A stretch of 64,000 nt of DNA from a phage. The stretch lies in sequence record PZ019086.1; one strand, 5' to 3'. This document shows positions 9,318-37,670 of this stretch, in pieces. Made by a program: the position numbers and the translations under genes. The notes beneath the pieces are model-generated. The model was not told the DNA's origin. It searched no databases and saw nothing but the letters and a program-made list of their open reading frames with translations. Positions within the stretch are counted from its first letter, which is position 1. Every line of letters starts with the position of its first letter.

Positions 9318-10034
9318 ATGAATTATAAACTAATTTATGAAAAGTTAATCTCTAATGCTAAATCTCGAAAACTTGATTGCTATACTGAATCTCATCACAT
9401 TATACCACGCTGTTTAAATGGTAGCGATGATGCTTCAAACTTAGTAGATTTAACACCAGAAGAGCACTATGTAGCTCATCAACTTTTAGTAAAAATTTAT
9501 CCTTCTGAACCAAAATTAGTCTATGCTGCTAACATGATGACAGTTTCTACGAAATACGCTAAACGTAATAATAAAACTTTCGGCTGGATTCGTCGTAAAC
9601 TCTGGGAAATAGAAAAGAATAAAGAGTTCTCCCAAGAGACACGAAAGAAAATGTCCGATGCAGTAGCTAATAAAGCAAGACTAACTTGTCCACATTGCGG
9701 TAAGTCTGGATTAAGCGGGAATATGAATCGATGGCATTTTGATAACTGCCCAAATCACCCCAATCCTAAAGTTAGACCGCCAATGTCTAAAGAACACAGA
9801 AATAATATCTCAAACGGGCTTAAAGCAATCGTTCTTGAAGAAACAACCTGCGAATTCTGCGGAATGATAGGCAAGAAATGCGTTATCGCAGCGCATAGAA
9901 ATTTCTGCAAGAAAAATCCAAATGGACGCAAGAAAACTGAAAAGACTGGTACTTGCGTCCATTGTGGTAAAGTTACCACTTTCGGAAATTTATCAAGATG
10001 GCATAATGATAATTGTAAATATAAACCTAGCTAA
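9318..10034 (+). CDS. HNH-family homing-endonuclease-like protein with C-terminal zinc-finger repeats (mob-like)
   Basis: 238 aa; HNH motif ESHHIIPRCLNGSDDASNLVDLTPEEHYVAH; three CxxCG...WH..NC repeats; encoded opposite to surrounding genes between 45.2 and 46. Confidence 0.75.
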   Translation: MNYKLIYEKLISNAKSRKLDCYTESHHIIPRCLNGSDDASNLVDLTPEEHYVAHQLLVKIYPSEPKLVYAANMMTVSTKYAKRNNKTFGWIRRKLWEIEKNKEFSQETRKKMSDAVANKARLTCPHCGKSGLSGNMNRWHFDNCPNHPNPKVRPPMSKEHRNNISNGLKAIVLEETTCEFCGMIGKKCVIAAHRNFCKKNPNGRKKTEKTGTCVHCGKVTTFGNLSRWHNDNCKYKPS

Positions 10035-11730: not shown

Positions 11731-12585
11731 TCACAATGAAGAAAATTCTTTAACTAAAGCCTGTAATGAAGCCTCTATTGGATATCCATTCTTAACTAAC
11801 ATTTTCCTAAACATCACATGTTTAGGACGATTATATGATATCCACAATTCATACAATTTATCTTTATTATCCCAATGATAGCCTTTTCGTCGAGATGCTA
11901 TATGAGCTTTTCTAATCTCCGGATTTTTCCAACTAGCGGCTACTGAATTTGATATAGCTATTTTATATTCAGGTTTTGATAAAGCAACACGAACAGCCTT
12001 TTGGTGTTTAATTTTATTTTCTTCGTTATTAAACCATTCCCTTGAAGCCATTGAAATTTTTTGTTTTGTTTTAAAATTATTTAATCTTTCTTTGTTATCT
12101 TTCCTATTTTTTGCTACTGAAAAGTATTTTAATGCTCTTTCTCTAGCAGCATTTCTATTTTGTGGATTTGAATAATATTGTTGAAGCCTTTTTGATATTG
12201 TGTCACTTACATCTTGTTTTATAAAACTATATTCAGCAGCTATTAAATCAACTTCGGCTAAAGATAAATTTTTATATGTTTTTCCTGACATCATTCTATT
12301 TAAAGCATTTAGCATTTTTCCATTTTTACCTTTTGCTAATAAGAAATGTGCTTTAAAATGATTAAAATGACTTAAATTAACTAAATTCCATGTAGATTTT
12401 AAATATTCAGGAAATATTGATTTAGGAAGCACATGGTGTGCTTCCGTTTTACCTGGAGTTTTAACAGTTGAATTCATAGAAATAAAATTAATGTAAGACT
12501 TGGCGTCTTCTTCACTCAACGCTAATTTTTCAACTAATTCCTTTATTAAAAATTCATCATTAATGTCAAGTTTAAAATTCTTCAC
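11731..12585 (-). CDS. HNH-family endonuclease-like protein (second mob-like gene), apparent GTG start
   Basis: 284 aa; HNH motif EAHHVLPKS...NLVNLSHFNHFKAH; basic repetitive C-terminal region; inserted immediately upstream of 46. Confidence 0.65.
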   Translation of the reverse strand: MKNFKLDINDEFLIKELVEKLALSEEDAKSYINFISMNSTVKTPGKTEAHHVLPKSIFPEYLKSTWNLVNLSHFNHFKAHFLLAKGKNGKMLNALNRMMSGKTYKNLSLAEVDLIAAEYSFIKQDVSDTISKRLQQYYSNPQNRNAARERALKYFSVAKNRKDNKERLNNFKTKQKISMASREWFNNEENKIKHQKAVRVALSKPEYKIAISNSVAASWKNPEIRKAHIASRRKGYHWDNKDKLYELWISYNRPKHVMFRKMLVKNGYPIEASLQALVKEFSSL

Positions 12586-23861: not shown

Positions 23862-24104
23862 TTATTCCTTAATTCCTAGTACTTGTTTAAAAGTCTCGTC
23901 GTAATCAAGACTTTGACCTGTTTGTTCTTTATGTTTGTATATAATATCACTTACTTCTGATAGCATATTTTTATATGAACGAGTTAAAGCAGATTTAAGC
24001 ACGCTATATCTATCAGGAAATTTACCATGTTCATTATAATACGCTATTGCTAATTCACGGACTGCTTTTTCAGCAGTCTCCATATATTCTTTACGCTTTG
24101 TCAT
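23862..24104 (-). CDS. Hypothetical protein (nrdC.1 position)
   Basis: Track ORF starts at TTG; first in-frame ATG at 24104. Confidence 0.45.
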
Positions 24105-28814: not shown

Positions 28815-29342
28815 TTATGCGAGTACCGTCTTTAACCGTTCTTCAAACTTCCGAAGAGTATTTTGGCGTTCAGCTCTTTGCTTTTTGTAAGTTTCAATAC
28901 GCTCTGAAATGAGAGTGTATCGTTCATTTACTGATTCTTTCATAAAATCAGGAATTTCACGAGAAGCTTTAATCTCGTCAAATTTATCAATAACAGCTTG
29001 CTCTTCAGCAATTAAGTTATCATACATTAAAATATCTTTCTTGATGAACTCAATATCTTCTTGAGTTACACTAGATAATTTAGATGCTTTATCCTTTTTG
29101 TACTGTTCGTTAGTATCACGAGACCAATGTAATGTACGATTTTTATTCGTATTTTTGTAAATTTCTACAATACCGATCTCATCAATAATAACGATCCAAT
29201 TCCAACGGGATTTGTAAATTTGTCCTCCATCAACAGTGATTTCACCTCCGATTGAGATGTCGTTAAAGAACTTGCTTTGCGCTTCAGATTTAAATTTACC
29301 ATCGTTGTAATTTACCAAGTTGAAAATATCTTTAGCGTTCAT
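28815..29342 (-). CDS. Hypothetical protein
   Basis: 175 aa; GGAGG RBS; directly downstream of an early promoter. Confidence 0.6.
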   Translation of the reverse strand: MNAKDIFNLVNYNDGKFKSEAQSKFFNDISIGGEITVDGGQIYKSRWNWIVIIDEIGIVEIYKNTNKNRTLHWSRDTNEQYKKDKASKLSSVTQEDIEFIKKDILMYDNLIAEEQAVIDKFDEIKASREIPDFMKESVNERYTLISERIETYKKQRAERQNTLRKFEERLKTVLA

Positions 29343-29365
29343 TTTCTGTTCCTCCGTAGTTGATA

Positions 29366-29402
29366 GTTGTATAGTACCACAGAGGAACAGTCTTGTAAAC
29401 CA
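29366..29402 (-). promoter_or_regulatory. T4-type early promoter
   Basis: Plus strand tgtatagtaccac...tgtaaac; approximate. Confidence 0.6.
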
Positions 29403-29717
29403 CTAAAAGAAACTTCTTTCACAATTTTTTCCACTGAACCAGGCGCTCACTGCTTTCTTAGTCTCAGGAGCAGTGTTATCCATAAACCATTCAAAGGCAG
29501 CCTTTTTATGATTCTGGAGGGCTTCTCGGGCTTTAATCTGCTCACGGTCTATTAACACTAACATATGAGCCTTTCTTGTCACCATGGGCTTCTTATGATT
29601 TTTTGAATACTCCCAGTCATTTGTCCATCGCATTGTCGTTGCGAACTGAAATACTGCTTCTTTAATTTTAGTTTCGTAAATTTCACGAGCCTTTGAGTAT
29701 AACATCATTACCTCCAT
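29403..29717 (-). CDS. Hypothetical protein
   Basis: 104-aa ORF. Confidence 0.5.
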   Translation of the reverse strand: MEVMMLYSKAREIYETKIKEAVFQFATTMRWTNDWEYSKNHKKPMVTRKAHMLVLIDREQIKAREALQNHKKAAFEWFMDNTAPETKKAVSAWFSGKNCERSFF

Positions 29718-29806
29718 TCACCAGTTTAATTCTAGTCATCTTTTTAATGGCAGTCCATATAATCTATTTCTGAACTGCCTTTTTGTTATAGAAGTCCTCT
29801 TATGAA

Positions 29807-30775
29807 TTATTTCAGAAGAGTAACCTCAGCAATTTCTTCCCAACCGTTTTTGTCGGTCATAATAAAGTCAGCAAGATAAAGAGCAGTACGCAGTGAAACA
29901 TTGCGTAAACGGTTAACATTAACTTTCATCCATGATAATGCTTTATAAGTTTCTTCATCAGAAAGACCGCGCTTTTGCATCATATCAGTTGAAAGAATAA
30001 CATCTTCAACCCTGACCATAATTTCTTCATTAGTGTGAACACCCAAATCTAAATAAACTGAGCGGGACACTAATGCTTGTAAATGTGGAGCAAGTTTAGT
30101 ACCACGGTCTAATTCGCGGTCAATGTCAACGTTTGTGATAAAAACAATCGTTCCTTTAAATTCAAACTCACGGTCAATGCCTTTTTCTTCTAAGTAAGAA
30201 GATGCAGTGCTCCAGCAGACTTTACGGGTCTCTCCAGTGTCCAGAGCAGCTTTTAGAAGATTAAGAATGTCCATATCAGAGAAAACATCCACATCATCAA
30301 TCAAAAGGACAGAATTCTCTTCACGATTATTCCAAAGCTGTTCATAAAGACCAATACCAGAGATTTTACCGTTAATGCTTTTATATTCAATGTATCCATT
30401 ATCATTTGCTTTATTTAAAGCTTTATCTAAAGAATACGTTTTACCAATACCTGCTGCGCCAGAGATAATCAATGAACGAATATTTCCATTAATAATACCA
30501 TTCGTCATCATTCCCATAACATTAAATCTTTTATTAATGCGGGTTTTCATATCTTCATATGATTCTTTAACTTCTTCAACTTTTACACCATCATATGAAA
30601 TATCTGATTTGTAAACCCAAACACCGCGACGTTTACCGTCAATTTCAACAAAAACTTTACCATCTCCTTGTGCATCTACCGGAGCATTATCTGGGAACCA
30701 TTCGCCTAAGAGCTCAAAAGTTCCAGAGATTTCTTTACCGAAGTAGATACCCTTATTGATAGTTACAGTTTTCAT
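29807..30775 (-). CDS. AAA+ ATPase
   Basis: Walker A GAAGIGKT, Walker B VLLIDDVD; start moved from track GTG to ATG at 30775 with GGAGA RBS. Confidence 0.7.
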   Translation of the reverse strand: MKTVTINKGIYFGKEISGTFELLGEWFPDNAPVDAQGDGKVFVEIDGKRRGVWVYKSDISYDGVKVEEVKESYEDMKTRINKRFNVMGMMTNGIINGNIRSLIISGAAGIGKTYSLDKALNKANDNGYIEYKSINGKISGIGLYEQLWNNREENSVLLIDDVDVFSDMDILNLLKAALDTGETRKVCWSTASSYLEEKGIDREFEFKGTIVFITNVDIDRELDRGTKLAPHLQALVSRSVYLDLGVHTNEEIMVRVEDVILSTDMMQKRGLSDEETYKALSWMKVNVNRLRNVSLRTALYLADFIMTDKNGWEEIAEVTLLK

Positions 30776-30806
30776 TTTATTCTCCAATTTCACATTTGTT
30801 TTGATA

Positions 30807-30843
30807 GGGTAATAGTATCACACTACTACCCTACTGTAAACAA
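30807..30843 (-). promoter_or_regulatory. T4-type early promoter
   Basis: Plus strand gtaatagtatcaca...tgtaaac; approximate. Confidence 0.6.
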
Positions 30844-30844
30844 T

Positions 30845-31108
30845 TTATTTTAATGTTCGCCAAATTTTTACTGCTTCGCGACGAGATACTTCTACAGCTC
30901 CAAGTTCTACGGCTTTTTGGCGGCGGCGCGCGTGTAAGTCATAATGTTTAATGCGTTTATCTTGAAACCAAGAGCGTTTCATTCCTATTGCTTCTGCCAT
31001 TTCATGAAGCTCTTCAATATCTCCATCAGTGAACATATGACAATTTTTAGTTGGATGACCGCGAAGTTTCCATCCATGATTCATTAAAACATCTACGTAA
31101 ACTGTCAT
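30845..31108 (-). CDS. Small conserved protein (DUF4031-like, nrdC.11 position)
   Basis: 87 aa, MTVYVDVLMNHGWKLRGHP...; family assignment from memory. Confidence 0.55.
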   Translation of the reverse strand: MTVYVDVLMNHGWKLRGHPTKNCHMFTDGDIEELHEMAEAIGMKRSWFQDKRIKHYDLHARRRQKAVELGAVEVSRREAVKIWRTLK

Positions 31109-31254
31109 TGATTCTGCTCCAAATATGTTTCTATAATTTTCTGAGCGAGATAAACTGCGTTATCTTCAGTTGCATCTTCTAAGAAATTTTCAAAACAAGC
31201 TGAAATCTCTTCTGTGTCAATCAACTTTTTTACTTCAATTAACGTAGTTTTCAT
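31105..31254 (-). CDS. Small acidic protein (49 aa), not in ORF track
   Basis: ATG with GGGGAATAAA RBS right after an early promoter; stop overlaps next start (ATGA); approximate. Confidence 0.4.
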   Translation of the reverse strand: MKTTLIEVKKLIDTEEISACFENFLEDATEDNAVYLAQKIIETYLEQNQ

Positions 31255-31283
31255 TTTATTCCCCAAATCCACATCAGTTGATA

Positions 31284-31320
31284 GTTGTATAGTACCATAA
31301 AGCTTTATGCTTGTAAACCG
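31284..31320 (-). promoter_or_regulatory. T4-type early promoter
   Basis: Plus strand tgtatagtacca...tgtaaac; approximate. Confidence 0.6.
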
Positions 31321-31347
31321 TTTTGTGAAAAAATTTTGAAATAAAAA

Positions 31348-31367
31348 AGGGAGCCCGAAGGCTCCCT
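31348..31367 (-). terminator. UUCG-loop hairpin closing the accessory island operon
   Basis: agggagcccgaaggctccct directly 3' of the nucleotidyltransferase stop; approximate. Confidence 0.55.
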
Positions 31368-31368
31368 A

Positions 31369-32379
31369 TCATTTATAATAACTTCGATGGTTTTCAAGAT
31401 AGACCTTCTCAAGGAAGTCATCCCAGAAACTCATGTCTACTTTTTGCTGCATACCGTTCTTAGAAGCTTCAGTAGATGCTGCTTCTACTTGATCGACCAC
31501 ATCTTCCAAAAACTCTTGAACAATTTTAAATGGATGTTTACCCAACTTCACGTCGAGAATAAATGGAGCGTCTTGAAGTGGATAGACTAAGTCACCAGTT
31601 TTGTAAATTTCCAATAGTTGAAGTCCACCACGACAAGCATGGCTCAGAGCTTTCCAGTCAATACCTTCGTTGGCTTCGGCCTTACGGGCACGTTCACCAT
31701 ATTCAGCATCTAATTTGTTCAGTGACTGCTTAAGCTCAATAAGAGAAAGCGTTGTCTGATATTTACGACCCAACACAGTGTAAAACGTTTGTGGACCTGT
31801 TTTCTCATGATTATGGAACACCCATTCACAGAATTCGTTTTCTGGAAGACGATGCTTAATATCTTCAACTTTAGTACGACGCTGCTTAATGGAACCGTCT
31901 TCTTGGTAATCAACCCATTGCTCAGGGATTTGATTAACTACTTTCAATACATCGCGTAATGCAGCCAAACGAGAACCCTTGACACCGTATTTAGAAGCTT
32001 GCTTGCGGACATATCCTAAATAGGATTTCATGTTAGTCGTATAAAAACGAGAACGATTGTCTTGAATAAACTTCCATACATCAGGCAAATCAGATTTAAC
32101 CACTAGCTCGGGTGGAGTGTGGAGCATATCCAATGCTACAGTTTCACCATCTGCTGCTAATTTAAAGAAATACTTAAGACTGTATAGTTCATGGTCAATA
32201 TCATCTTTAGTGTTTTTAGATGATGTGTTGTTAGTGTTTTTACTCATATGCTCTTTAACATTTCCGATAAGAATATCGCGAGCAGGAGGAACAAAGATTT
32301 CTTTAAAATCTACATCAGATTCTGGAGTAGAAGTTCCATAAAGATGACTACCAAAATAAGACTTAACTACAGTTTTCAT
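31369..32379 (-). CDS. Polymerase-beta superfamily nucleotidyltransferase-like protein with C-terminal helical domain
   Basis: 336 aa; N-terminal GS-x9-DVD motif (YFGSHLYGTSTPESDVDF) and a third acidic residue about 60 aa later (ETVALDML); ATG overlaps upstream stop (TAATG); AAGGA RBS. Confidence 0.65.
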   Translation of the reverse strand: MKTVVKSYFGSHLYGTSTPESDVDFKEIFVPPARDILIGNVKEHMSKNTNNTSSKNTKDDIDHELYSLKYFFKLAADGETVALDMLHTPPELVVKSDLPDVWKFIQDNRSRFYTTNMKSYLGYVRKQASKYGVKGSRLAALRDVLKVVNQIPEQWVDYQEDGSIKQRRTKVEDIKHRLPENEFCEWVFHNHEKTGPQTFYTVLGRKYQTTLSLIELKQSLNKLDAEYGERARKAEANEGIDWKALSHACRGGLQLLEIYKTGDLVYPLQDAPFILDVKLGKHPFKIVQEFLEDVVDQVEAASTEASKNGMQQKVDMSFWDDFLEKVYLENHRSYYK

Positions 32380-32840
32380 TATTTATCCTTATATTCAATA
32401 ACAGGACATACTTTAGCTTTACTCGCTTTTAAAAATTCGACGATAATAGATTTCTTGGGTTGAATAGGAGGTAAACCTTTATACGCCCTATCAATATTTT
32501 CTACATGTAAAGCATAATCCTTTTTCCATTTATAATCTTTATATTTTTCACGCAGTTGTACAGGAATAACAAATGAACCAATAATAAGTAAAACAAGCAA
32601 AATGACAAGTACAAATGCTGATGGAATAAGAGTCCATAAACTACCAAAAATAAGCCATTTCTGTATGATTTCTGCACAGATGATAGTTAGACCTGCGAGT
32701 ACAGTACATCCGAAAAAAGAAACGAAAAATGTAGGGATAACAATAGACCAAAAGTATGCACATAGTGTCTTAGGTCGTTTCCATTCATCATTAAACATTT
32801 TGAATAATTTATAATGCCAAGAGTTTTCATTAATAATCAT
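32379..32840 (-). CDS. Small membrane protein (2-3 predicted TM helices) translationally coupled to the nucleotidyltransferase
   Basis: 153 aa; hydrophobic segments FWSIVIPTFFVSFFGCTVLAGLTIICAEII and LIPSAFVLVILLVLLIIGSFVI; basic C-terminal tail. Confidence 0.6.
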   Translation of the reverse strand: MIINENSWHYKLFKMFNDEWKRPKTLCAYFWSIVIPTFFVSFFGCTVLAGLTIICAEIIQKWLIFGSLWTLIPSAFVLVILLVLLIIGSFVIPVQLREKYKDYKWKKDYALHVENIDRAYKGLPPIQPKKSIIVEFLKASKAKVCPVIEYKDK

Positions 32841-32842
32841 AA

Positions 32843-33364
32843 TTATCCTTTCATTGAAGGTGTAACAGTTGTTAAATACTTAATCATAGCTTCAGCTTCT
32901 GATTTTGATAATGAAATTTCTCCATTGTTTTGACGAATAGAAATAAAATCCGGATGACGGTCACCACCAGCTTTTAAAACACACATGTAAGTATCAACTT
33001 CGCCTTCAATATTTGAAATGATTGAAGCAGTTCCACATGAATGTGGTTGTTGATAAACTAATACAGCTTTTCTTCCACCGTTTGACTGTTCATAAACTTT
33101 TAACACATCAAACAAATCACTTCTTTTATCAATAGCTAAGATGTTGTTTTCATCTTCAATGTTAAATCCTTCGGATATTTCATAAAGTGTCACCCATAAA
33201 TCGCCAATATCAATGACAGCATTCACCTTTCCATGATTTTCAAGAGCATTACAAATTTTCTTAATTTCATCATAACTCATTTTAATAATATCATCTCCTT
33301 GAATAAAGAAGATGTCATTTTTAAATTCAACGCGAATTAAACCACTTTCACTTGAAATAAACAT
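32843..33364 (-). CDS. Hypothetical protein, paralog A of a tandem pair
   Basis: 173 aa; shares GFNIE-E and C-terminal IRQ...L-K-EA--L-KYL--V-P-M pattern with the adjacent 183-aa protein. Confidence 0.6.
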   Translation of the reverse strand: MFISSESGLIRVEFKNDIFFIQGDDIIKMSYDEIKKICNALENHGKVNAVIDIGDLWVTLYEISEGFNIEDENNILAIDKRSDLFDVLKVYEQSNGGRKAVLVYQQPHSCGTASIISNIEGEVDTYMCVLKAGGDRHPDFISIRQNNGEISLSKSEAEAMIKYLTTVTPSMKG

Positions 33365-33370
33365 ATTTCC

Positions 33371-33922
33371 TCACTTTGAAATCATAGTTGGAATGACAGA
33401 ATCAAGATAAGTCTTTAATAAAACAGCTTCTTCTTTGTTTAATACAACAACATTAACATCATTTACCGATTGACGAATAGTTAAGACATCTCCCTCTTCA
33501 TAGCATTTTGATACATTTAAAACAGTTTCATAATTTTGATTACAAGCGTTAGTAATAATAGCATTGCAATTTTTAAACCATTTTAAACCATGTTTTCTTT
33601 CATTAGAATAATAGAAATATTTAATCTTAGCTATAAAATTATCCCAATTATTAATTGATAAGCATATTGACTCGCTTTCAATATTAAATCCTGGGCATAA
33701 AGAATAAAAATGAATTTTATGCTCATCATTAATGCTTACAATTTTATCAGTGTATGGTTTTTCAATTTGGGTTAAATGAATAATTTCGCTAGGCGTAAAA
33801 TATAGCATATCGTCTTCTTGCGTCAAACGATACATATTATTTACTTTTTCTATAGCCAATTCACCAAAAAGTGAACTAACTTCTAGTACTAATCGTTTCA
33901 TATTAATCCTTTTTATTGGCAT
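33371..33922 (-). CDS. Hypothetical protein, paralog B of a tandem pair
   Basis: 183 aa; see paralog A. Confidence 0.6.
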   Translation of the reverse strand: MPIKRINMKRLVLEVSSLFGELAIEKVNNMYRLTQEDDMLYFTPSEIIHLTQIEKPYTDKIVSINDEHKIHFYSLCPGFNIESESICLSINNWDNFIAKIKYFYYSNERKHGLKWFKNCNAIITNACNQNYETVLNVSKCYEEGDVLTIRQSVNDVNVVVLNKEEAVLLKTYLDSVIPTMISK

Positions 33923-34169
33923 GAATTTGTTCTAAAATTTTAGAGTATTCCTTTGTATCAGATTTACGTACAATCGATACACTATAAGGCATACTATCGG
34001 TGTCTTTTATAAAGCGTTCCAAATGACACTCTAACAAAATTTCTGGGTTATAAATCGTGTACATCAAATTACCTGTTGCTCCACGATATTGACAGATTTC
34101 TACTGATTGAGCATCATTCCACAATTTTGTTAAGACTAAATCGCCTACTTCTAATTTAGGAAAGCTCAT
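33903..34169 (-). CDS. Hypothetical small protein
   Basis: Start moved from track TTG to ATG at 34169 (MSFPKLEVGDL...). Confidence 0.5.
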   Translation of the reverse strand: MSFPKLEVGDLVLTKLWNDAQSVEICQYRGATGNLMYTIYNPEILLECHLERFIKDTDSMPYSVSIVRKSDTKEYSKILEQIHANKKD

Positions 34170-34170
34170 G

Positions 34171-34356
34171 TTATTCACCAATTAAAGTTTCAATATAAGA
34201 ATCAAGATTTACTTTAGCTTCTTCCATAAGAGTTTTGTATTTAATCTTATTAGCATGTCCGGAGAAAGCTGATTCATCAATAACTGTTGATGCATGAACA
34301 GCTTTACTATACATCTCAATTAATTCTCTTAATTTAAAAGCCTGCTCACTTGTCAT
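34171..34356 (-). CDS. Hypothetical small helical protein
   Basis: 61 aa; ATG start overlapping upstream small-ORF stop. Confidence 0.5.
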   Translation of the reverse strand: MTSEQAFKLRELIEMYSKAVHASTVIDESAFSGHANKIKYKTLMEEAKVNLDSYIETLIGE

Positions 34357-34460
34357 TACATGCTCCTTTGAATAATATCAATAATGTTGTTCACCAGATT
34401 ATAAGTAAACATTGGGTAATTATATTGAATCATCACATACACAACAAACAAAACTTTCAT
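34356..34460 (-). CDS. Small hydrophobic peptide (34 aa), not in ORF track
   Basis: ATG with AGGAGAAGAGA RBS just downstream of an early promoter; TAATG overlap with next gene; approximate. Confidence 0.35.
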   Translation of the reverse strand: MKVLFVVYVMIQYNYPMFTYNLVNNIIDIIQRSM

Positions 34461-34484
34461 TCTCTTCTCCTTGGCAGTTGGCAA

Positions 34485-34520
34485 GATTACTATATCATAA
34501 CCTTGCCAACTTGTAAACCA
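34485..34520 (-). promoter_or_regulatory. T4-type early promoter (internal to the island)
   Basis: Minus-strand GGTTTACAAGTTGGCAAGGTTATGATATAGTAAT; approximate. Confidence 0.5.
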
Positions 34521-34676
34521 TTAAATGACGTTTTCAATAAAATTCTGGAGTTTTGTGTGAGCATCAACCATGATTTTCATTTCTTCCTTTGCAAAAGCTA
34601 TGCCTCTTTCCCTAGAAGAACACTCATAGTCAGAAACTGCATTAGCATATTCTTCAATTAGCTTCATTAAAAACAT
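34521..34676 (-). CDS. Small protein (about 51 aa), not in ORF track
   Basis: Minus-strand ORF MFLMKLIEEYANAVSDYEC...; approximate. Confidence 0.3.
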   Translation of the reverse strand: MFLMKLIEEYANAVSDYECSSRERGIAFAKEEMKIMVDAHTKLQNFIENVI

Positions 34677-34683
34677 CTGCTTT

Positions 34684-34878
34684 TCAGTTTTCATTATTCC
34701 ACCTAATCATTTCAAGATATTGAACTAACTTAGCTTTAGATTTATCCAAATCTCTTTTAGCTGCTTCTATACCATCGTATGAGTATCCTTCACAATGCTC
34801 AACTGCTAATTGGTATGAATCTATTTCAACATCACGTGCTAATTTAATGATTTTTTCAAACTGTTCACGCGTTAGCAT
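34684..34878 (-). CDS. Hypothetical small helical protein
   Basis: 64 aa; ATG start. Confidence 0.5.
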   Translation of the reverse strand: MLTREQFEKIIKLARDVEIDSYQLAVEHCEGYSYDGIEAAKRDLDKSKAKLVQYLEMIRWNNEN

Positions 34879-34880
34879 AC

Positions 34881-35084
34881 TTAAACTCTCGTATTATGAT
34901 CGATAATTTCATCAAGAAACATATCTAAAGCTTCTACAGCATTATCAACTTTAGCTTCAAGTTCTTCAGCATCTTTATTTGCAATGCCTGACGAAAACCA
35001 AGCAAAGTCACTAAGTTCCTCATCTGCTTTGCGAATTAAAGCTACCAATTCTTTAATTTTATCTGCTTGTTCAATGCTAATCAT
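34881..35084 (-). CDS. Hypothetical small acidic helical protein
   Basis: Start set to in-frame ATG at 35084 ([13 protein letters not shown]...), TAATG-coupled to upstream gene. Confidence 0.5.
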   Translation of the reverse strand: MISIEQADKIKELVALIRKADEELSDFAWFSSGIANKDAEELEAKVDNAVEALDMFLDEIIDHNTRV

Positions 35085-35272
35085 TATTCCACCACATATG
35101 AAAGAGAGAATATTGCACACGCCATGTGAGTTGCAGCTTCATCACACATATCATAACGTTTCTTAAGAAGTTCTACAAGTTCTTCACTAGTAACGTCATC
35201 CACGTTGACGAAAAAATCACCATTAATGATGACGTAGATATTTCCTTCTTGATTGAGTGCTTCAATTTTCAT
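35084..35272 (-). CDS. Hypothetical small protein, first gene of the island operon
   Basis: Start set to ATG at 35272 with AAAGAGGAG RBS; the track N-terminal extension overlaps the promoter. Confidence 0.5.
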
Positions 35273-35295
35273 GATGTTCTCCTCTTTATCCGATG

Positions 35296-35332
35296 GTTGT
35301 ATAGTATCACAGCTCAAATGGAAAGTAAACCG
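35296..35332 (-). promoter_or_regulatory. T4-type early promoter driving the accessory island
   Basis: Plus strand tgtatagtatcac...agtaaac; approximate. Confidence 0.6.
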
Positions 35333-35345
35333 GTAAAATGAAAAA

Positions 35346-35363
35346 AGTCTCCCGAAGGAGACT
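35346..35363 (-). terminator. UUCG-loop hairpin after rI.-1
   Basis: agtctcccgaaggagact; approximate. Confidence 0.5.
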
Positions 35364-35367
35364 AATG

Positions 35368-35754
35368 TTATTCGAGGGAAAGAAGATATTTGCTCTGGTA
35401 AAACATCCCAGTAATATCATCTATCGTGCTTTGAATGGCCGGAGGCATTTCTTTATAAATGCTGTTAGATTGGTCTAGTATGCGATCAATCATTTTAATT
35501 GTGTCGGTAGGAAGTTTACTGGCATCTGGAATAGAAGGCGTGTATTTTCTACCAGAATACCCCAAATATTGCTCACCAAATTTATCAATCAAATCTGGCA
35601 ACTCAGAGAAAATAAAATCGTATGCTTTGTGTCTAGCATAACTTTTAGTTTCAAAATGCGCAGAATGAAAATAAGCTTGTGCAGCCATTAATAAACCTAA
35701 GTATTCATCTGCCTTTGAAGGTTTTCCACTTTGTGAAAAGTCGCTGAATTTCAT
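35368..35754 (-). CDS. Hypothetical protein (rI.-1 position)
   Basis: 128 aa; overlaps rI stop. Confidence 0.65.
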
Positions 35755-36044
35755 TCAGTCTCCAATTTAATGTTCATAATTCTAGCGTATGATTGTGCCA
35801 TCTCCGCGCCTCGCTCTATACATTCAAAATCGGAAGAACACGGGTCATTTTTATAAGTCGTTCGCATAAAACTATAGAACTGTTCAGATGATTCTACGCT
35901 TTTATTTTCAAAAAGCGTATAAACATGTCTAATACCAGATTCCATAAATTTATCAAAATGAGGATCGACATTCGCTTCAATCGGCGGAGATAAAACAAAC
36001 GCTAATCCTAGCATGGCGAATAATGCCGCTGCTTTTAAGGCCAT
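35751..36044 (-). CDS. rI: Lysis inhibition regulator rI
   Basis: 97 aa; signal-anchor MALKAAALFAMLGLAFVLSPPIEA; matches T4 rI closely from memory. Confidence 0.9.
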   Translation of the reverse strand: MALKAAALFAMLGLAFVLSPPIEANVDPHFDKFMESGIRHVYTLFENKSVESSEQFYSFMRTTYKNDPCSSDFECIERGAEMAQSYARIMNIKLETE

Positions 36045-36056
36045 AAAGGCCTCCTA

Positions 36057-36269
36057 TCATTTTTGTCCTGTATTTACTTTATGCCGATGCACGGCCTTAA
36101 CTTTATCAAGGTATTTTTCAAAATTTCGCAATCTAGTATAGTCTGCCGGAGATTGGTTGAGTGATACTTCTCGACGCAAAGCTGAAATGATATTTCCAAC
36201 TTCCCTACGAATTTCATCTAATTGAAGAACAGTAAGATTGCGAAGTTGCTTTTCAGTTAATTGTAGCAT
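36057..36269 (-). CDS. Hypothetical protein (rI.1 position)
   Basis: 70-aa ORF. Confidence 0.55.
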
Positions 36270-36311
36270 ATATACCCCTTTAGTTAGATAAACCTATTTA
36301 TAACTTTTGCA

Positions 36312-36893
36312 CTAACCGAGCTTTTTAGTTAATTCATTCCAATGTTTTCTACACAAAGAAACATAAATTTCATCACCAATACAGATTTGATTACCTTCTT
36401 TAACTGGTGTTCCATCTTCCATTAATCGAGCTGTCATAATAGCTTTTTTACCACAATGACAAACTGCTTTTAGTTCAATAAGTTTATCTGCAATCGCCAA
36501 AAGTTCTTTAGAACCTTCAAATAATTTTCCAGCGAAATCAGTCCTTAGCCCATAAGCCATAACAGGAACATTATATGTATCAACAATTCGGCTTAATTGA
36601 TGCACCTGTTCAGTTTTTAAAAACTGGGCTTCATCTACAAATACACAATGAATATCTTTTTGTGCTTCAGCCCATTTATAGAACTCAAAAATATCCATAT
36701 CATCCGTAATAATATTCGCTTCCTGCTTAATTCCAATGCGAGAAACGACTTCACAGACAGAATCACGAGTATCAATAGCAGGCTTAAGAACTAATACGCC
36801 CATTCCGCGTTCTTTATAATTATGTGCAGCAGTCAAAAGAGAAGCAGATTTTCCAGCATTCATTGCTGCATAAGTAAAAATTAAACTCGCCAT
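36312..36893 (-). CDS. tk: Thymidine kinase
   Basis: 193 aa; P-loop AAMNAGKS and C-terminal zinc ribbon cysteines. Confidence 0.9.
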   Translation of the reverse strand: MASLIFTYAAMNAGKSASLLTAAHNYKERGMGVLVLKPAIDTRDSVCEVVSRIGIKQEANIITDDMDIFEFYKWAEAQKDIHCVFVDEAQFLKTEQVHQLSRIVDTYNVPVMAYGLRTDFAGKLFEGSKELLAIADKLIELKAVCHCGKKAIMTARLMEDGTPVKEGNQICIGDEIYVSLCRKHWNELTKKLG

Positions 36894-36902
36894 ATCACCT
36901 TC

Positions 36903-37088
36903 TTAAAGCGTATTCACATAAGCTATTAATTCGTTTTCTTTCTTATCAAACCGGTCAGCAAATTCTTCCTGTTGTTCGGGAGATAGCGGGCCATATTCAT
37001 CATAAAAGGTGTTTGCTTCTGTATGCTCATCTAGAAGTTCATGGATAAGCTCAAACAATTTATCTTTTTGTTCTTTACTCAGACTCAT
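36903..37088 (-). CDS. Hypothetical small acidic protein (tk.1)
   Basis: 61-aa ORF. Confidence 0.5.
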   Translation of the reverse strand: MSLSKEQKDKLFELIHELLDEHTEANTFYDEYGPLSPEQQEEFADRFDKKENELIAYVNTL

Positions 37089-37258
37089 ATATTAATTTCC
37101 AGAAGTTTTAAAATAATTCGCTTTTGCTTAAATATTTCCATAGTTAAATGATCAGTATCTTTTTGACCAATTCCGATGGCAAAACCTTTATTAACAGCGA
37201 GTTCAATTAAATTATCAAGCTCGCGTAACACCTCATATTGTAACTCAGAACTATTCAT
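37085..37258 (-). CDS. Small protein (57 aa), not in ORF track
   Basis: ATG/TGA overlaps with both neighbours; approximate. Confidence 0.4.
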   Translation of the reverse strand: MNSSELQYEVLRELDNLIELAVNKGFAIGIGQKDTDHLTMEIFKQKRIILKLLEINI

Positions 37259-37467
37259 TTTGGTTTACCTTCTTTAACAAAATCGGGATAAGGATAAAAT
37301 CCTGAATAAAATCCTTCACCTTTATGATTAATGCATCCTTTATTAGAGCAATAGCACCAATAATCGAAATCACAAGCCATTTCATCATTGCATAAAGCAA
37401 AAACAACTGGCCATTTACACTTTTCACAATGTGCATTTTTAAGAATGCTAGTTTGGCTCATAACCAT
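37255..37467 (-). CDS. Cys-rich small protein (tk.2 position)
   Basis: Start set to ATG at 37467; CEKCKW...CYCSNKGC. Confidence 0.5.
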   Translation of the reverse strand: MVMSQTSILKNAHCEKCKWPVVFALCNDEMACDFDYWCYCSNKGCINHKGEGFYSGFYPYPDFVKEGKPK

Positions 37468-37670
37468 GTAACCTTTAAGCAATATTCTTCTACATGCTGT
37501 TTACGACCTTTCTTATCAATAAAGGTATATTCAACGAATGTTCCAATATAGTCTTTATCTACATCATGTGGACTATTAATTGGGCATTTAGTACGGCAAA
37601 TGCGTTCCCATTGACGAATAATTTCTGCTTTGTTTTTAGGATCAAACGGATGCGGGTAATGTACTTTCAT
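37458..37670 (-). CDS. Hypothetical small protein (tk.3 position)
   Basis: 70-aa ORF. Confidence 0.5.
   Translation of the reverse strand: MKVHYPHPFDPKNKAEIIRQWERICRTKCPINSPHDVDKDYIGTFVEYTFIDKKGRKQHVEEYCLKVTWL

What the first reader, a model, noticed from the sequence alone, without database searches (positions are those of the whole stretch)
31109..35367. Early-transcribed ~4.3 kb accessory island replacing the T4 mobD position
Between the conserved nrdC.11-position gene (30845..31108) and rI.-1 (35368..35754), where I recall T4 carrying only the homing-endonuclease gene mobD, this phage carries about 11 tightly coupled minus-strand genes. They are bracketed by an early promoter (about 35296..35332, with a second internal one at about 34485..34520) and a UUCG hairpin terminator (about 31348..31367). 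Content: a nucleotidyltransferase, a small membrane protein, a diverged tandem paralog pair and seven small mostly helical proteins. Early expression and small-protein content are typical of phage host-takeover or anti-defence cassettes, and the position is a known hyperplastic region. None of the products carries a motif I can assign to a described anti-defence family.
Basis: partly seen in the sequence, partly recalled or inferred. Interest (0 to 1): 0.8.

Follow-up and report, generated by a model that had tools for sequence, protein, structure and literature searches.

The report
Ordinary T-even early accessory gene block
This stretch is the normal nrdC.11-to-mobD.5 block of small early accessory genes shared by hundreds of T4-like phages; T4 is the odd one out, lacking four of these genes, two of them where it carries a selfish homing-endonuclease gene instead.

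Summary
The sequence features are real: eleven tightly coupled minus-strand genes (31369-35272), early promoters and a UUCG terminator. The 336-aa nucleotidyltransferase is T4 NrdC.11 itself (98.8% identical). Six more genes are orthologs of T4 mobD.1, .2, .2a, .3, .4 and .5 in the same order.

Only four genes lack a T4 ortholog: a membrane protein plus a MobD.1 paralog (where T4 has mobD), and a Tudor-domain protein plus a DUF7438 protein. This arrangement covers at least 80% of the query in 362 sequenced phage records. mobD occurs in 47 records, all at least 99% identical. T4 still carries the ribosome-binding site and first 16 nt of the missing paralog. So T4 is the derived state, not this phage.

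The block is bounded by published PeSL terminator-promoter cassettes of T4-type hyperplastic regions. T4 orthologs are expressed early. Most of the orthologous block has been deleted from T4, and its orthologs tolerate transposon insertions in Bas37, with no defence phenotype so far.

The parts
35346..35363 (-). Stem-loop terminator (UUCG loop plus U-run) after rI.-1. It is the stem-loop half of a PeSL-type cassette.
   Evidence: -10.8 kcal/mol, z -4.5.
35301..35329 (-). Early promoter TTTACT-N17-TACTAT. It is the promoter half of the PeSL and drives mobD.5 through mobD.2a.
   Evidence: It is one of four copies of a 44-nt conserved motif.
35084..35272 (-). MobD.5 ortholog (62 aa), phrog_3024, function unknown.
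   Evidence: 92% identical to T4 MobD.5.
34881..35084 (-). MobD.4 ortholog (67 aa), a DUF7438 family member.
   Evidence: 81% identical to T4 MobD.4. PF24219 E 2e-15.
34684..34878 (-). MobD.3 ortholog (64 aa), a DUF7438 family member.
   Evidence: 97% identical to T4. PF24219 E 3e-17.
34521..34694 (-). Full-length MobD.2a (57 aa), a DUF7438 family member. The T4 copy is frameshifted and truncated to 38 aa.
   Evidence: tblastn splits the T4 match into aa 1-38 and aa 33-57 in another frame. PF24219 E 7e-14.
34489..34517 (-). Internal early-type promoter TTTACA-N17-TATAGT with TG. It drives mobD.2 through nrdC.11.
34356..34460 (-). MobD.2 ortholog (34 aa, hydrophobic).
   Evidence: 91% identical to T4 and 100% to ACG-C40.
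34171..34356 (-). 61-aa DUF7438 protein with no T4 ortholog. It is mis-annotated as 'helicase loader' in some records.
   Evidence: PF24219 E 5e-15. No direct T4 match. phrog_4859.
33903..34169 (-). 88-aa phage Tudor-domain protein with no T4 homolog.
   Evidence: PF24144 E 3e-40. No hit in T4 six-frame ORFs.
33371..33901 (-). MobD.1 ortholog (176 aa), y05I family, PUR/Whirly-like.
   Evidence: 81% identical to T4 MobD.1. PF24449 plus PF24448.
32843..33364 (-). 173-aa tandem paralog of MobD.1 (y05I family). It is absent from T4 except for a 22-nt relic of its RBS and start.
32379..32840 (-). 153-aa two-TM-helix membrane protein with no T4 homolog. It belongs to a large phage family with no Pfam model. 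Its stop codon overlaps the nrdC.11 start.
31369..32379 (-). NrdC.11 (336 aa), an RlaP-family Pol-beta nucleotidyltransferase with G10-S11, D22-x-D24 and D84.
   Evidence: 98.8% identical to T4 NrdC.11. PF10127 scores 43.7 bits against a cut-off of 23. Literature.
31348..31367 (-). Stem-loop terminator (UUCG loop plus U-run) after nrdC.11. It is the stem-loop half of a second PeSL.
   Evidence: -17.7 kcal/mol, z -4.4.
31289..31317 (-). Early promoter TTTACA-N17-TACTAT. It is the promoter half of the second PeSL and drives the 49-aa ORF and DUF4031.
31105..31254 (-). 49-aa ORF with no T4 homolog. It is the first gene of a 479-bp cassette.
   Evidence: dN/dS 0.12.
30845..31108 (-). DUF4031 protein (87 aa) with no T4 homolog.
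   Evidence: PF13223 E 8e-22.
30767..30842 (-). Early promoter (30812..30840) plus 5'UTR and start of nrdC.10. It is a direct repeat of 31246..31319 and flanks the 49-aa/DUF4031 cassette.
   Evidence: Repeat families D1 and D7, 479-nt spacing.

Best explanation
IDENTITY. The interval is the nrdC.11-mobD.5 segment of the nrdC-tk hyperplastic region that Tequatrovirus (T4-like) phages share. It has two early transcription units. One runs from the promoter at 35329 through mobD.5, mobD.4, mobD.3 and mobD.2a. The other runs from the promoter at 34517 through mobD.2, a 61-aa DUF7438 gene, a Tudor-domain gene, mobD.1, its paralog, a membrane-protein gene and nrdC.11, to the terminator at 31367..31348. 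Terminator-plus-early-promoter (PeSL-type) cassettes frame the whole block.

EVOLUTION. Seven of the eleven genes are T4 orthologs. The four extra genes represent the common and, for at least one pair, ancestral state. In the T4 lineage the free-standing HNH homing-endonuclease gene mobD replaced the membrane-protein/paralog pair. The Tudor/DUF7438 pair appears to have been deleted there. Modules here are gained and lost by recombination at repeated promoter/5'UTR sequences and at gene junctions.

FUNCTION (inferred, not shown). These are non-essential early accessory genes.
- NrdC.11 is an RlaP-type RNA 3'-nucleotidyltransferase. It most likely adds one or two nucleotides to damaged RNA 3' ends, so that the phage's Pnk and RNA ligase can restore tRNAs cut and trimmed by host anticodon nucleases such as RloC (about 0.35 likely).
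- The MobD.1 paralog pair are PUR-alpha/Whirly-like proteins that probably bind single-stranded nucleic acid (about 0.4).
- The four DUF7438 proteins, MobD.2, MobD.5, the Tudor protein and the membrane protein probably modulate host or phage components. Their targets are unknown.
For: ORTHOLOGY AND SYNTENY.
- tblastn and blastn against T4 give NrdC.11 98.8%, MobD.1 81%, MobD.2 91%, MobD.2a 87% (the T4 copy is frameshifted), MobD.3 97%, MobD.4 81% and MobD.5 92% identity. The flanks nrdC.10, rI.-1, rI and tk are collinear.

HOW COMMON THE ARRANGEMENT IS.
- The 5-kb query matches 730 phage records, 362 of them over at least 80% of its length at about 90-96% identity. These include ACG-C40 and BASEL phage Bas35.
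- The membrane/paralog cassette is in 446 records.
- The Tudor/DUF7438 cassette is in 209 records, 117 of them in full.
- mobD is in only 47 records, all at least 99% identical.

POLARITY.
- T4 keeps GGAAATATGTTTATTTCAAGTG, the RBS plus first 16 nt of the paralog gene, between mobD.1 and mobD.
- The T4 MobD.1 N-terminus MMSEA-KRLVLEV looks like the start of the 61-aa gene (MTSEQ) fused to mobD.1.
- In T4-like phages whose membrane protein is only 28-50% identical, that gene still sits at most one gene upstream of the RlaP gene.

REGULATORY FRAME.
- Hairpins and promoters. They match the published PST/T4 PeSL consensus.
- A 479-bp cassette holding the 49-aa ORF and DUF4031 is flanked by direct repeats of about 75 nt covering promoter, 5'UTR and start.
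- ACG-C40 carries a ModB-like gene inserted at the same PeSL.

EXPRESSION AND DISPENSABILITY.
- T4 orthologs are early at RNA and protein level.
- T4 tolerates loss of nrdC.11-mobD.3.
- Bas37 orthologs bas37_0206-0214 are non-essential.
- dN/dS is 0.03-0.4 for most genes.

FUNCTION.
- PF10127 RlaP scores above its gathering cut-off. The motif G10-S11 / D22-x-D24 / D84 is conserved in a 52%-identical ortholog.
- T4 NrdC.11 is placed in the RlaP family, and RlaP enzymes add 1-2 NMP to damaged RNA 3' ends. Restoring RloC-excised nucleotides is the predicted role.
Against: - None of the functional inferences is tested for these phage proteins.
- NrdC.11 falls in its own RlaP cluster, cluster 5, and the authors call it 'of unknown function'. 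No RNA ligase gene is adjacent here.
- The evidence that T4 lost the Tudor/DUF7438 pair is a short match of 9 of 12 nt plus continuous upstream homology. It is only suggestive.
- PeSL or promoter repeats mark just one of the three indel boundaries against T4. The other two lie at plain gene junctions.
Confidence: 0.8

Rival explanations
1. This is a phage-specific accessory island acquired at the T4 mobD position, and it acts as an early anti-defence or host-takeover cassette.
For: - The genes are early-transcribed, small and non-essential, and lie in a hyperplastic region.
- Two other genes of the same nrdC-tk region are reported as bona fide anti-defence genes. These are T4 nrdC.1 against Septu and bas37_0203 against Druantia III. 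By position and length bas37_0203 is the NrdC.8 ortholog, whose window copy lies about 1.8 kb from the interval.
- Four genes are missing from T4.
Against: - Seven of the eleven genes are T4 orthologs.
- The arrangement is the majority state, and T4 is the derived one.
- There are no matches in the PADLOC or NCBIfam libraries.
- Bas37 orthologs of nine of the eleven genes showed no significant depletion in the clinical-isolate comparison I read, and they are not among that paper's hits.
- The 'acquired island' part is essentially excluded. The idea that at least one gene is an anti-defence factor stays open at about 0.3.
Confidence: 0.1
2. The membrane protein, the PUR-like proteins and NrdC.11 form one functional module, for example membrane-anchored RNA repair. 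This would explain their translational coupling and conserved adjacency.
For: - The membrane-protein stop codon overlaps the nrdC.11 start.
- The membrane gene stays directly, or one gene, upstream of the RlaP gene in T4-like phages with only 28-50% identical membrane proteins.
Against: - T4 lacks the membrane protein yet keeps NrdC.11 at 98.8% identity.
- Five non-T4-like viral contigs encode a member of the membrane-protein family with no RlaP gene within 5 kb.
- The adjacency is therefore explained by lineage synteny.
Confidence: 0.07
3. The membrane protein is a superinfection-exclusion or lysis-timing factor, in line with its position near rI and rI.-1.
For: - It is an early membrane protein with two long helices, and both termini lie on the same side of the membrane in the model.
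- One distant family member weakly matches SieB (PF14163, E 1e-3, below the cut-off).
- PHROG places the family under 'moron, auxiliary metabolic gene and host takeover'.
Against: - The SieB match is sub-threshold and seen in only one member.
- The model has low confidence (pLDDT 68.7, pTM 0.34).
- There is no experimental data.
Confidence: 0.1
4. The small ORFs are non-functional filler, or decaying genes.
For: - The block is dispensable.
- In T4 mobD.2a is frameshifted.
- In T2 and ECO4 the y05I genes are split into fragments.
Against: - dN/dS is well below 1 for most genes.
- RBS and translational coupling are intact.
- The T4 proteins MobD.1 and MobD.3 are detected by mass spectrometry.
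- The genes are conserved across hundreds of genomes.
Confidence: 0.03

Closest known systems
Phage T4 nrdC.11-mobD.5 segment (NC_000866, 55,435-58,722)
   Same: The flanking genes, strand, gene order and early promoters are the same. Seven orthologous genes are 81-99% identical at protein level, and about 2.4 kb of DNA is 89-96% identical.
   Different: T4 has the HNH homing-endonuclease gene mobD where this phage has the membrane protein and the second y05I paralog. T4 also lacks the Tudor/DUF7438 pair and the 49-aa/DUF4031 cassette, and its mobD.2a is frameshifted.
The same locus in Escherichia phages WilhelmHis (Bas35, MZ501113) and vB_EcoM_ACG-C40 (NC_019399), plus about 360 other Tequatrovirus records
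   Same: Gene content and order are identical for all eleven genes, at about 95% DNA identity.
   Different: ACG-C40 carries an extra ModB-like ADP-ribosyltransferase gene inserted at the PeSL between nrdC.11 and the 49-aa ORF. Bas37 lacks the Tudor/DUF7438 pair and the DUF4031 cassette.
PeSL (promoter-early stem-loop) cassettes of T4-type hyperplastic regions (Arbiol et al. 2010, PMC2839356; Comeau et al. 2014, PMC4122927)
   Same: A stem-loop terminator is followed directly by TTTACW-N17-TAYWAT at 35363..35301 and at 31367..31289. Both sites lie next to variable ORFs. One cassette is flanked by repeated promoter/5'UTR sequence.
   Different: Two of the three differences from T4 have boundaries at ordinary gene junctions with no PeSL.
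RlaP nucleotidyltransferases (PF10127; PfRlaP and PaRlaP, preprint 10.64898/2025.12.29.696909)
   Same: The Pfam match is above the cut-off and the Pol-beta catalytic motif is present. The authors place T4 NrdC.11 in the family.
   Different: NrdC.11 falls in a separate sequence cluster (cluster 5). It is not next to an RNA ligase gene, its C-terminal 200 residues are not covered by the Pfam match, and its activity is untested.
PUR-alpha / Whirly / MRP1-2 / PC4-like single-strand nucleic-acid binders
   Different: Sequence identity is only 5-14%. Foldseek gives no significant PDB hit. Nucleic-acid binding is untested. The family appears confined to T4-like phages.
Anti-defence genes reported in the same hyperplastic region (T4 nrdC.1 against Septu; bas37_0203 against Druantia III; preprint 10.1101/2025.11.20.689424)
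   Same: They share the nrdC-tk early accessory region and the same class of small or uncharacterised early genes. The window carries orthologs at 23865..24104 (NrdC.1) and 28818..29342 (NrdC.8).
   Different: Those genes lie outside the flagged interval. The orthologs of the flagged genes showed no such phenotype in the data I read.

Membership tests
T4 nrdC.11-mobD.5 gene block | Collinear flanks: nrdC.10 on one side, and rI.-1, rI and tk on the other. | tested here: met
   Flank identities are 95-100% and the order is the same.
T4 nrdC.11-mobD.5 gene block | Orthologs of nrdC.11 and mobD.1, .2, .2a, .3, .4 and .5 are present in order. | tested here: met
   Protein identities are 81-99%.
T4 nrdC.11-mobD.5 gene block | The HNH homing-endonuclease gene mobD lies between nrdC.11 and mobD.1. 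| tested here: not met
   There is no MobD match at the locus. MobD-like HNH ORFs occur only at 9318..10034 and 11731..12585.
PeSL regulatory cassette | A stem-loop terminator is followed directly by the early promoter TTTACW-N17-TAYWAT. | tested here: met
   Present at 35363..35301 and at 31367..31289. The consensus comes from PMC4122927.
PeSL regulatory cassette | Indel boundaries between related phages coincide with the cassette. | tested here: inconclusive
   Met for the 49-aa/DUF4031 cassette and for the ACG-C40 ModB-like insertion. Not met for the other two differences from T4.
RlaP nucleotidyltransferase (PF10127) | The Pfam score is above the gathering cut-off. | tested here: met
   43.7 bits against a cut-off of 23, E 3.6e-11, residues 7-134.
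RlaP nucleotidyltransferase (PF10127) | The Pol-beta motif hG[GS]...DxD is present, plus a third carboxylate. | tested here: met
   G10-S11, D22-V-D24 and D84 are read from the sequence. They are conserved in a 52%-identical ortholog.
RlaP nucleotidyltransferase (PF10127) | The gene neighbours an RNA ligase or RNA-repair gene. | tested here: not met
   No ligase lies within the locus. T4 encodes rnlA, rnlB and pseT far away.
RlaP nucleotidyltransferase (PF10127) | The enzyme adds 1-2 NMP to RNA 3'-OH ends. | not testable with these tools
   Shown only for the Pseudomonas enzymes.
Described anti-defence proteins | Sequence membership in a described family. | tested here: not met
   There are no hits in PADLOC or NCBIfam, and Pfam returns only DUF or structural labels. 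No dedicated anti-defence library was available.
Described anti-defence proteins | The gene becomes conditionally essential on a host that carries a defence system. | tested here: inconclusive
   In published Tn-seq of Bas37, orthologs bas37_0206-0213 show log2FC of +0.06 to +0.38 (q = 1) in the one comparison I read. bas37_0214 shows -1.20 (q = 0.29). Five other comparison tables were not read.
PUR-alpha/Whirly-like fold | Repeated beta-beta-beta-beta-alpha units with significant structural similarity. | tested here: inconclusive
DUF7438 (PF24219) | The Pfam score is above the gathering cut-off. | tested here: met
   Four genes in the interval score 52-63 bits against a cut-off of 25. A fifth copy lies at 36903..37088.
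Phage Tudor domain (PF24144) | The Pfam score is above the gathering cut-off. | tested here: met
   136.5 bits against a cut-off of 27, over the full length.

The most novel reading that the evidence does not exclude
The four genes that T4 lacks are counter-defence or exclusion determinants. The strongest candidates are the 153-aa membrane protein and its neighbouring PUR-like paralog. The membrane protein belongs to a very large phage family (1,845 clusters at 50% identity) that has no Pfam model and no known function. On this reading, losing them, through mobD homing for one pair and probably through deletion for the other, cost the T4 lineage part of the host range that wild Tequatroviruses keep. 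mobD spread would then trade an adaptive accessory module for a selfish element.
Probability: 0.12. Interest if true: 0.5.

Novelty: already known. Interest (0 to 1): 0.15.

Why it matters
As posed, it matters little. The locus has been sequenced in hundreds of phages, its regulatory frame (PeSL) is published, and its protein families are already in Pfam and PHROGs.

The useful outcomes are corrections and leads.
- T4 is not a good reference for 'what belongs here', because its mobD insertion and deletions make common genes look like an island.
- NrdC.11 is a concrete, testable candidate third component of the T4-type tRNA repair pathway.
- The membrane protein belongs to a large uncharacterised phage family with a striking conserved signature.
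- Published anti-defence genes sit a few kb away in the same region. That makes a systematic deletion screen of this block reasonable, though the first Tn-seq data are negative.

Tried and rejected
- PADLOC and NCBIfam scans of ten proteins found nothing relevant.
- PDB sequence searches with the y05I paralog, NrdC.11, DUF4031 and the Tudor protein found nothing.
- Foldseek of the y05I model against PDB gave no significant hit. BFVD returned only family members and uncharacterised Bacillus-phage proteins.
- The membrane-protein AF2 model was too weak (pLDDT 68.7, pTM 0.34) to justify a fold search.
- I tested whether the membrane protein and RlaP form an obligate module, and rejected it. Five non-T4-like contigs have the membrane gene without RlaP nearby, and T4 has RlaP without the membrane gene.
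- I tested whether the 165-aa gene next to the distant membrane-protein homolog is y05I-like. It is not (hhalign probability 0.1). It is a second membrane-family paralog.
- An Rfam scan of 29000-37500 gave only a sub-threshold L20-leader match over the terminator hairpin (29 bits against 58.7), which I take as chance.
- The generic sigma-70 scan was uninformative, with 40 sites against 35.6 expected. The published T4-type consensus was decisive instead.
- MobD.4 shows 9 non-synonymous against 1-2 synonymous differences to ACG-C40 and Bas35. The counts are too small to claim positive selection.
- A full-text literature search for the mobD.1-.5 and nrdC.11 gene names returned five papers. In the three I read for this, none assigns a function; the RlaP preprint calls NrdC.11 'of unknown function'.

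Full report
WHAT IS THERE. The window is a T4-like (Tequatrovirus) genome segment. On the minus strand between rI.-1 (35368..35754) and the nrdC.10 ortholog (29807..30775) I find, in order of transcription:
- a UUCG stem-loop with U-run (35363..35346);
- an early promoter (35329..35301);
- four small genes: 35084..35272, 34881..35084, 34684..34878 and 34521..34694;
- a second early-type promoter (34517..34489);
- seven genes: 34356..34460, 34171..34356, 33903..34169, 33371..33901, 32843..33364, 32379..32840 and 31369..32379;
- a strong UUCG terminator (31367..31348);
- a third early promoter (31317..31289);
- two genes: 31105..31254 and 30845..31108;
- a fourth promoter (30840..30812) in front of nrdC.10.

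Every gene has a Shine-Dalgarno-like sequence. Gaps are -11 to +6 nt except where a promoter sits. The two hairpins fold at -17.7 and -10.8 kcal/mol, with z about -4.4. The published early-promoter consensus for the PST/T4 pair, TTTACW-N17-TAYWAT (PMC4122927), has 14 exact matches in the 64-kb window. All are on the minus strand, against 0.24 expected by chance.

The T4 record shows that between nrdC.11 and rI.-1 T4 carries mobD, mobD.1, mobD.2, mobD.2a, mobD.3, mobD.4 and mobD.5, not mobD alone. The 336-aa nucleotidyltransferase in the 'island' is NrdC.11 itself (98.8% identical). Six further genes are orthologs: MobD.1 (81%), MobD.2 (91%), MobD.2a (87%; the T4 copy is frameshifted), MobD.3 (97%), MobD.4 (81%) and MobD.5 (92%).

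At DNA level the window aligns to T4 over 29000-30787, 31246-32383, 33346-33899 and 34345-36893 at 89-97% identity. Three segments are window-specific:
- 30788-31245: a 49-aa ORF plus DUF4031;
- 32384-33345: a 153-aa membrane protein plus a 173-aa MobD.1 paralog, where T4 has 808 bp of mobD;
- 33900-34344: an 88-aa Tudor-domain protein plus a 61-aa DUF7438 protein.

A phmmer search of all six-frame ORFs of the complete T4 genome found no homolog of the membrane protein, the Tudor protein, the 49-aa ORF or DUF4031.

WHICH STATE IS DERIVED. The 5-kb query matches 730 phage records, 362 of them over at least 80% of its length. ACG-C40 and the BASEL phage Bas35 have exactly this gene set. The membrane/paralog cassette occurs in 446 records at 90-97% identity. 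T4 mobD DNA occurs in 47 records, all at least 99% identical, which is the signature of a recently spread selfish element.

T4 retains GGAAATATGTTTATTTCAAGTG immediately after the mobD.1 stop codon. That is the ribosome-binding site and first 16 nt of the 173-aa paralog gene, after which the sequences diverge into mobD. In T4-like phages whose membrane protein is only 28-50% identical, that gene still lies directly, or one gene, upstream of the NrdC.11 ortholog. So mobD replaced a pre-existing gene pair in the T4 lineage. mobD is a free-standing HNH endonuclease inserted between nrdC.11 and mobD.1, with unknown target (PMC2988022).

For the Tudor/DUF7438 pair the evidence is weaker. The T4 MobD.1 begins MMSEA-KRLVLEV, whereas here MobD.1 begins MKRLVLEV and the 61-aa gene begins MTSEQ. 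Homology with T4 runs from mobD.2 through that start codon. This suggests a deletion in T4. Intermediate states exist: the 61-aa gene without the Tudor gene in L010 and L011, and neither gene in Bas37.

HOW THE REGION CHANGES. The two terminator-plus-promoter units match the PeSL cassettes described for T4-type hyperplastic regions (PMC2839356, PMC4122927). The 49-aa/DUF4031 cassette is a 479-bp unit flanked by direct repeats of about 75 nt covering promoter, 5'UTR and the first codons (30767-30842 and 31246-31319). T4 has a single copy of this repeat. ACG-C40 has a ModB-like ADP-ribosyltransferase gene inserted at the same PeSL, flanked by a duplicated 50 bp. The other two differences from T4 have junctions at ordinary gene boundaries.

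A natural chimera, P0011, joins the MobD.1 N-terminal part to the C-terminal part of the paralog. This shows unequal recombination between the tandem paralogs.

WHAT THE PROTEINS ARE.
- NrdC.11 matches PF10127 (RlaP) above the gathering cut-off (43.7 bits against 23). It has the Pol-beta motif G10-S11, D22-x-D24 and D84, conserved in a 52%-identical ortholog.
- A 2025 preprint places T4 NrdC.11 in RlaP cluster 5 and calls it 'of unknown function'. It shows that two Pseudomonas RlaP enzymes add one or two NMPs to 3'-OH ends of damaged RNA, and that RlaP is needed to restore function to over-damaged tRNA. An earlier comparative study predicted that RlaP restores nucleotides removed by RloC-type nucleases before ligation (PMC7824862).
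- MobD.1 and its paralog (24% identical, E 8e-9) both carry the Pfam domains T4_y05I_N and T4_y05I_C.
- An AF2 model of the paralog, built from 26 sequences, has a confident N-terminal domain (pLDDT about 90) and a weak C-terminal one (about 55). It contains three beta-beta-beta-beta-alpha repeats.
- Four of the small proteins (61, 57, 64 and 67 aa) belong to DUF7438. A fifth copy lies beside tk at 36903..37088. The T4 members are MobD.2a, MobD.3, MobD.4, Tk.1 and Tk.2.
- The 88-aa protein is a full-length match to the Phage_tudor family.
- The membrane protein has no Pfam family. Even so, a profile search finds 1,845 clusters at E up to 1e-3 and 179 at up to 1e-10. They share a signature: an N-terminal SWHY(K/R)L...LCxYFW, two or more hydrophobic helices, and a C-terminal KA(K/R)KxK(V/I)CPxIE(F/Y).
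- No protein matched the PADLOC or NCBIfam libraries.

EXPRESSION, SELECTION AND DISPENSABILITY.
- In T4 time-course omics, mobD, mobD.1, mobD.3 and mobD.4 are early at RNA and protein level. nrdC.11 is early RNA and middle protein. MobD.1 and MobD.3 peptides are quantified (PMC9697503 supplement).
- dN/dS against T4, ACG-C40 and Bas35 is 0.03-0.04 for NrdC.11 and 0.05-0.4 for most others. MobD.4 and MobD.5 have too few changes to judge.
- T4 tolerates loss of nrdC.11-mobD.3 (PMC9825161).
- In Tn-seq of Bas37, which has the membrane/paralog pair, bas37_0206-0214 are all classed non-essential on K-12.
- In the one clinical-isolate comparison I read, bas37_0206-0213 have log2FC +0.06 to +0.38 (q = 1), and bas37_0214, the MobD.5 ortholog, has -1.20 (q = 0.29). 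None is among the hits named in that preprint.
- The same preprint reports anti-defence genes elsewhere in this hyperplastic region: T4 nrdC.1 against Septu and bas37_0203 against Druantia III. By position and length bas37_0203 is the NrdC.8 ortholog. The window orthologs lie at 23865..24104 and 28818..29342.

VERDICT. This is the ordinary, widely sequenced form of a T-even hyperplastic-region segment. The apparent 'island' is an artefact of comparing with T4, which is the derived genome at this locus.

The function of most products is unknown. I commit to the following:
- NrdC.11 acts as an RNA 3'-end nucleotidyltransferase in tRNA repair (about 0.35).
- The y05I pair are single-strand nucleic-acid binders (about 0.4).
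- At least one gene of the block turns out to be an anti-defence or exclusion factor (about 0.3).

Novelty: already known. Interest: low (0.15).

Noticed in passing
L001:7259-7283 (T4 NC_000866, about 57,258-57,282), aligned to window 33346-33370: T4 keeps a 22-nt relic between mobD.1 and mobD. It is the RBS plus the first 16 nt of the 173-aa y05I paralog gene. In T4 it opens a 23-codon ORF that runs into the mobD start.
   Followed up: yes
window 34521-34694; L001:7997-8166: T4 mobD.2a (38 aa) is a frameshifted, truncated copy of a 57-aa DUF7438 gene that is intact here and in ACG-C40.
   Followed up: partly
protein P0011 (metagenome): A natural 179-aa chimera joins the N-terminal two-thirds of MobD.1 to the C-terminal part of the 173-aa paralog. 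This is evidence of unequal recombination between the tandem paralogs.
   Followed up: partly
window 32379-32840: The 153-aa membrane protein belongs to a very large phage family (1,845 clusters at E up to 1e-3) with a sharply conserved N- and C-terminal signature and no Pfam model. One member weakly resembles SieB.
   Followed up: partly
window 30767-31319; L002:2055-2622: The 49-aa/DUF4031 cassette is flanked by direct repeats of about 75 nt covering promoter, 5'UTR and start. ACG-C40 has an extra ModB-like ADP-ribosyltransferase gene inserted at the adjacent terminator-promoter unit.
   Followed up: partly
window 9318-10034 (+) and 11731-12585 (-): Two ORFs resemble T4 MobD (53% over 75 aa, and 30% over 243 aa). 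One is on the opposite strand to all its neighbours, next to the gene 46 ortholog. They are probably free-standing HNH homing endonucleases. Neither has a Pfam hit at 1e-3.
   Followed up: partly
window 23865-24104 and 28818-29342: These are orthologs of T4 NrdC.1 (100% identical) and NrdC.8 (98%). A 2025 preprint reports nrdC.1 as a Septu inhibitor and bas37_0203 as a Druantia III inhibitor. By position and length bas37_0203 is the NrdC.8 ortholog.
   Followed up: partly
window 36903-37088 and 36894-37460: A fifth DUF7438 gene lies beside tk and is only 54% identical to T4 Tk.2. The tk.1-tk.3 segment is another variable slot, where DNA homology to T4 drops to 67% or is lost.
   Followed up: no
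window 34881-35084: The MobD.4 ortholog differs from ACG-C40 and Bas35 by 9 non-synonymous and only 1-2 synonymous changes. The counts are too small to test, but it is the only gene here that hints at diversifying change.
   Followed up: no
annotations in public records: Several product names at this locus look like annotation artefacts. They are 'molybdopterin-guanine dinucleotide biosynthesis protein MobD' for MobD.1 and MobD.4, 'helicase loader' for the 61-aa DUF7438 protein, and 'virion structural protein' for the Tudor protein.
   Followed up: no
window 31333-31496 (-): A sub-threshold Rfam match to the L20 leader (29 bits against a gathering score of 58.7) overlies the nrdC.11 3' end and the terminator hairpin. 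I take it as chance.
   Followed up: yes
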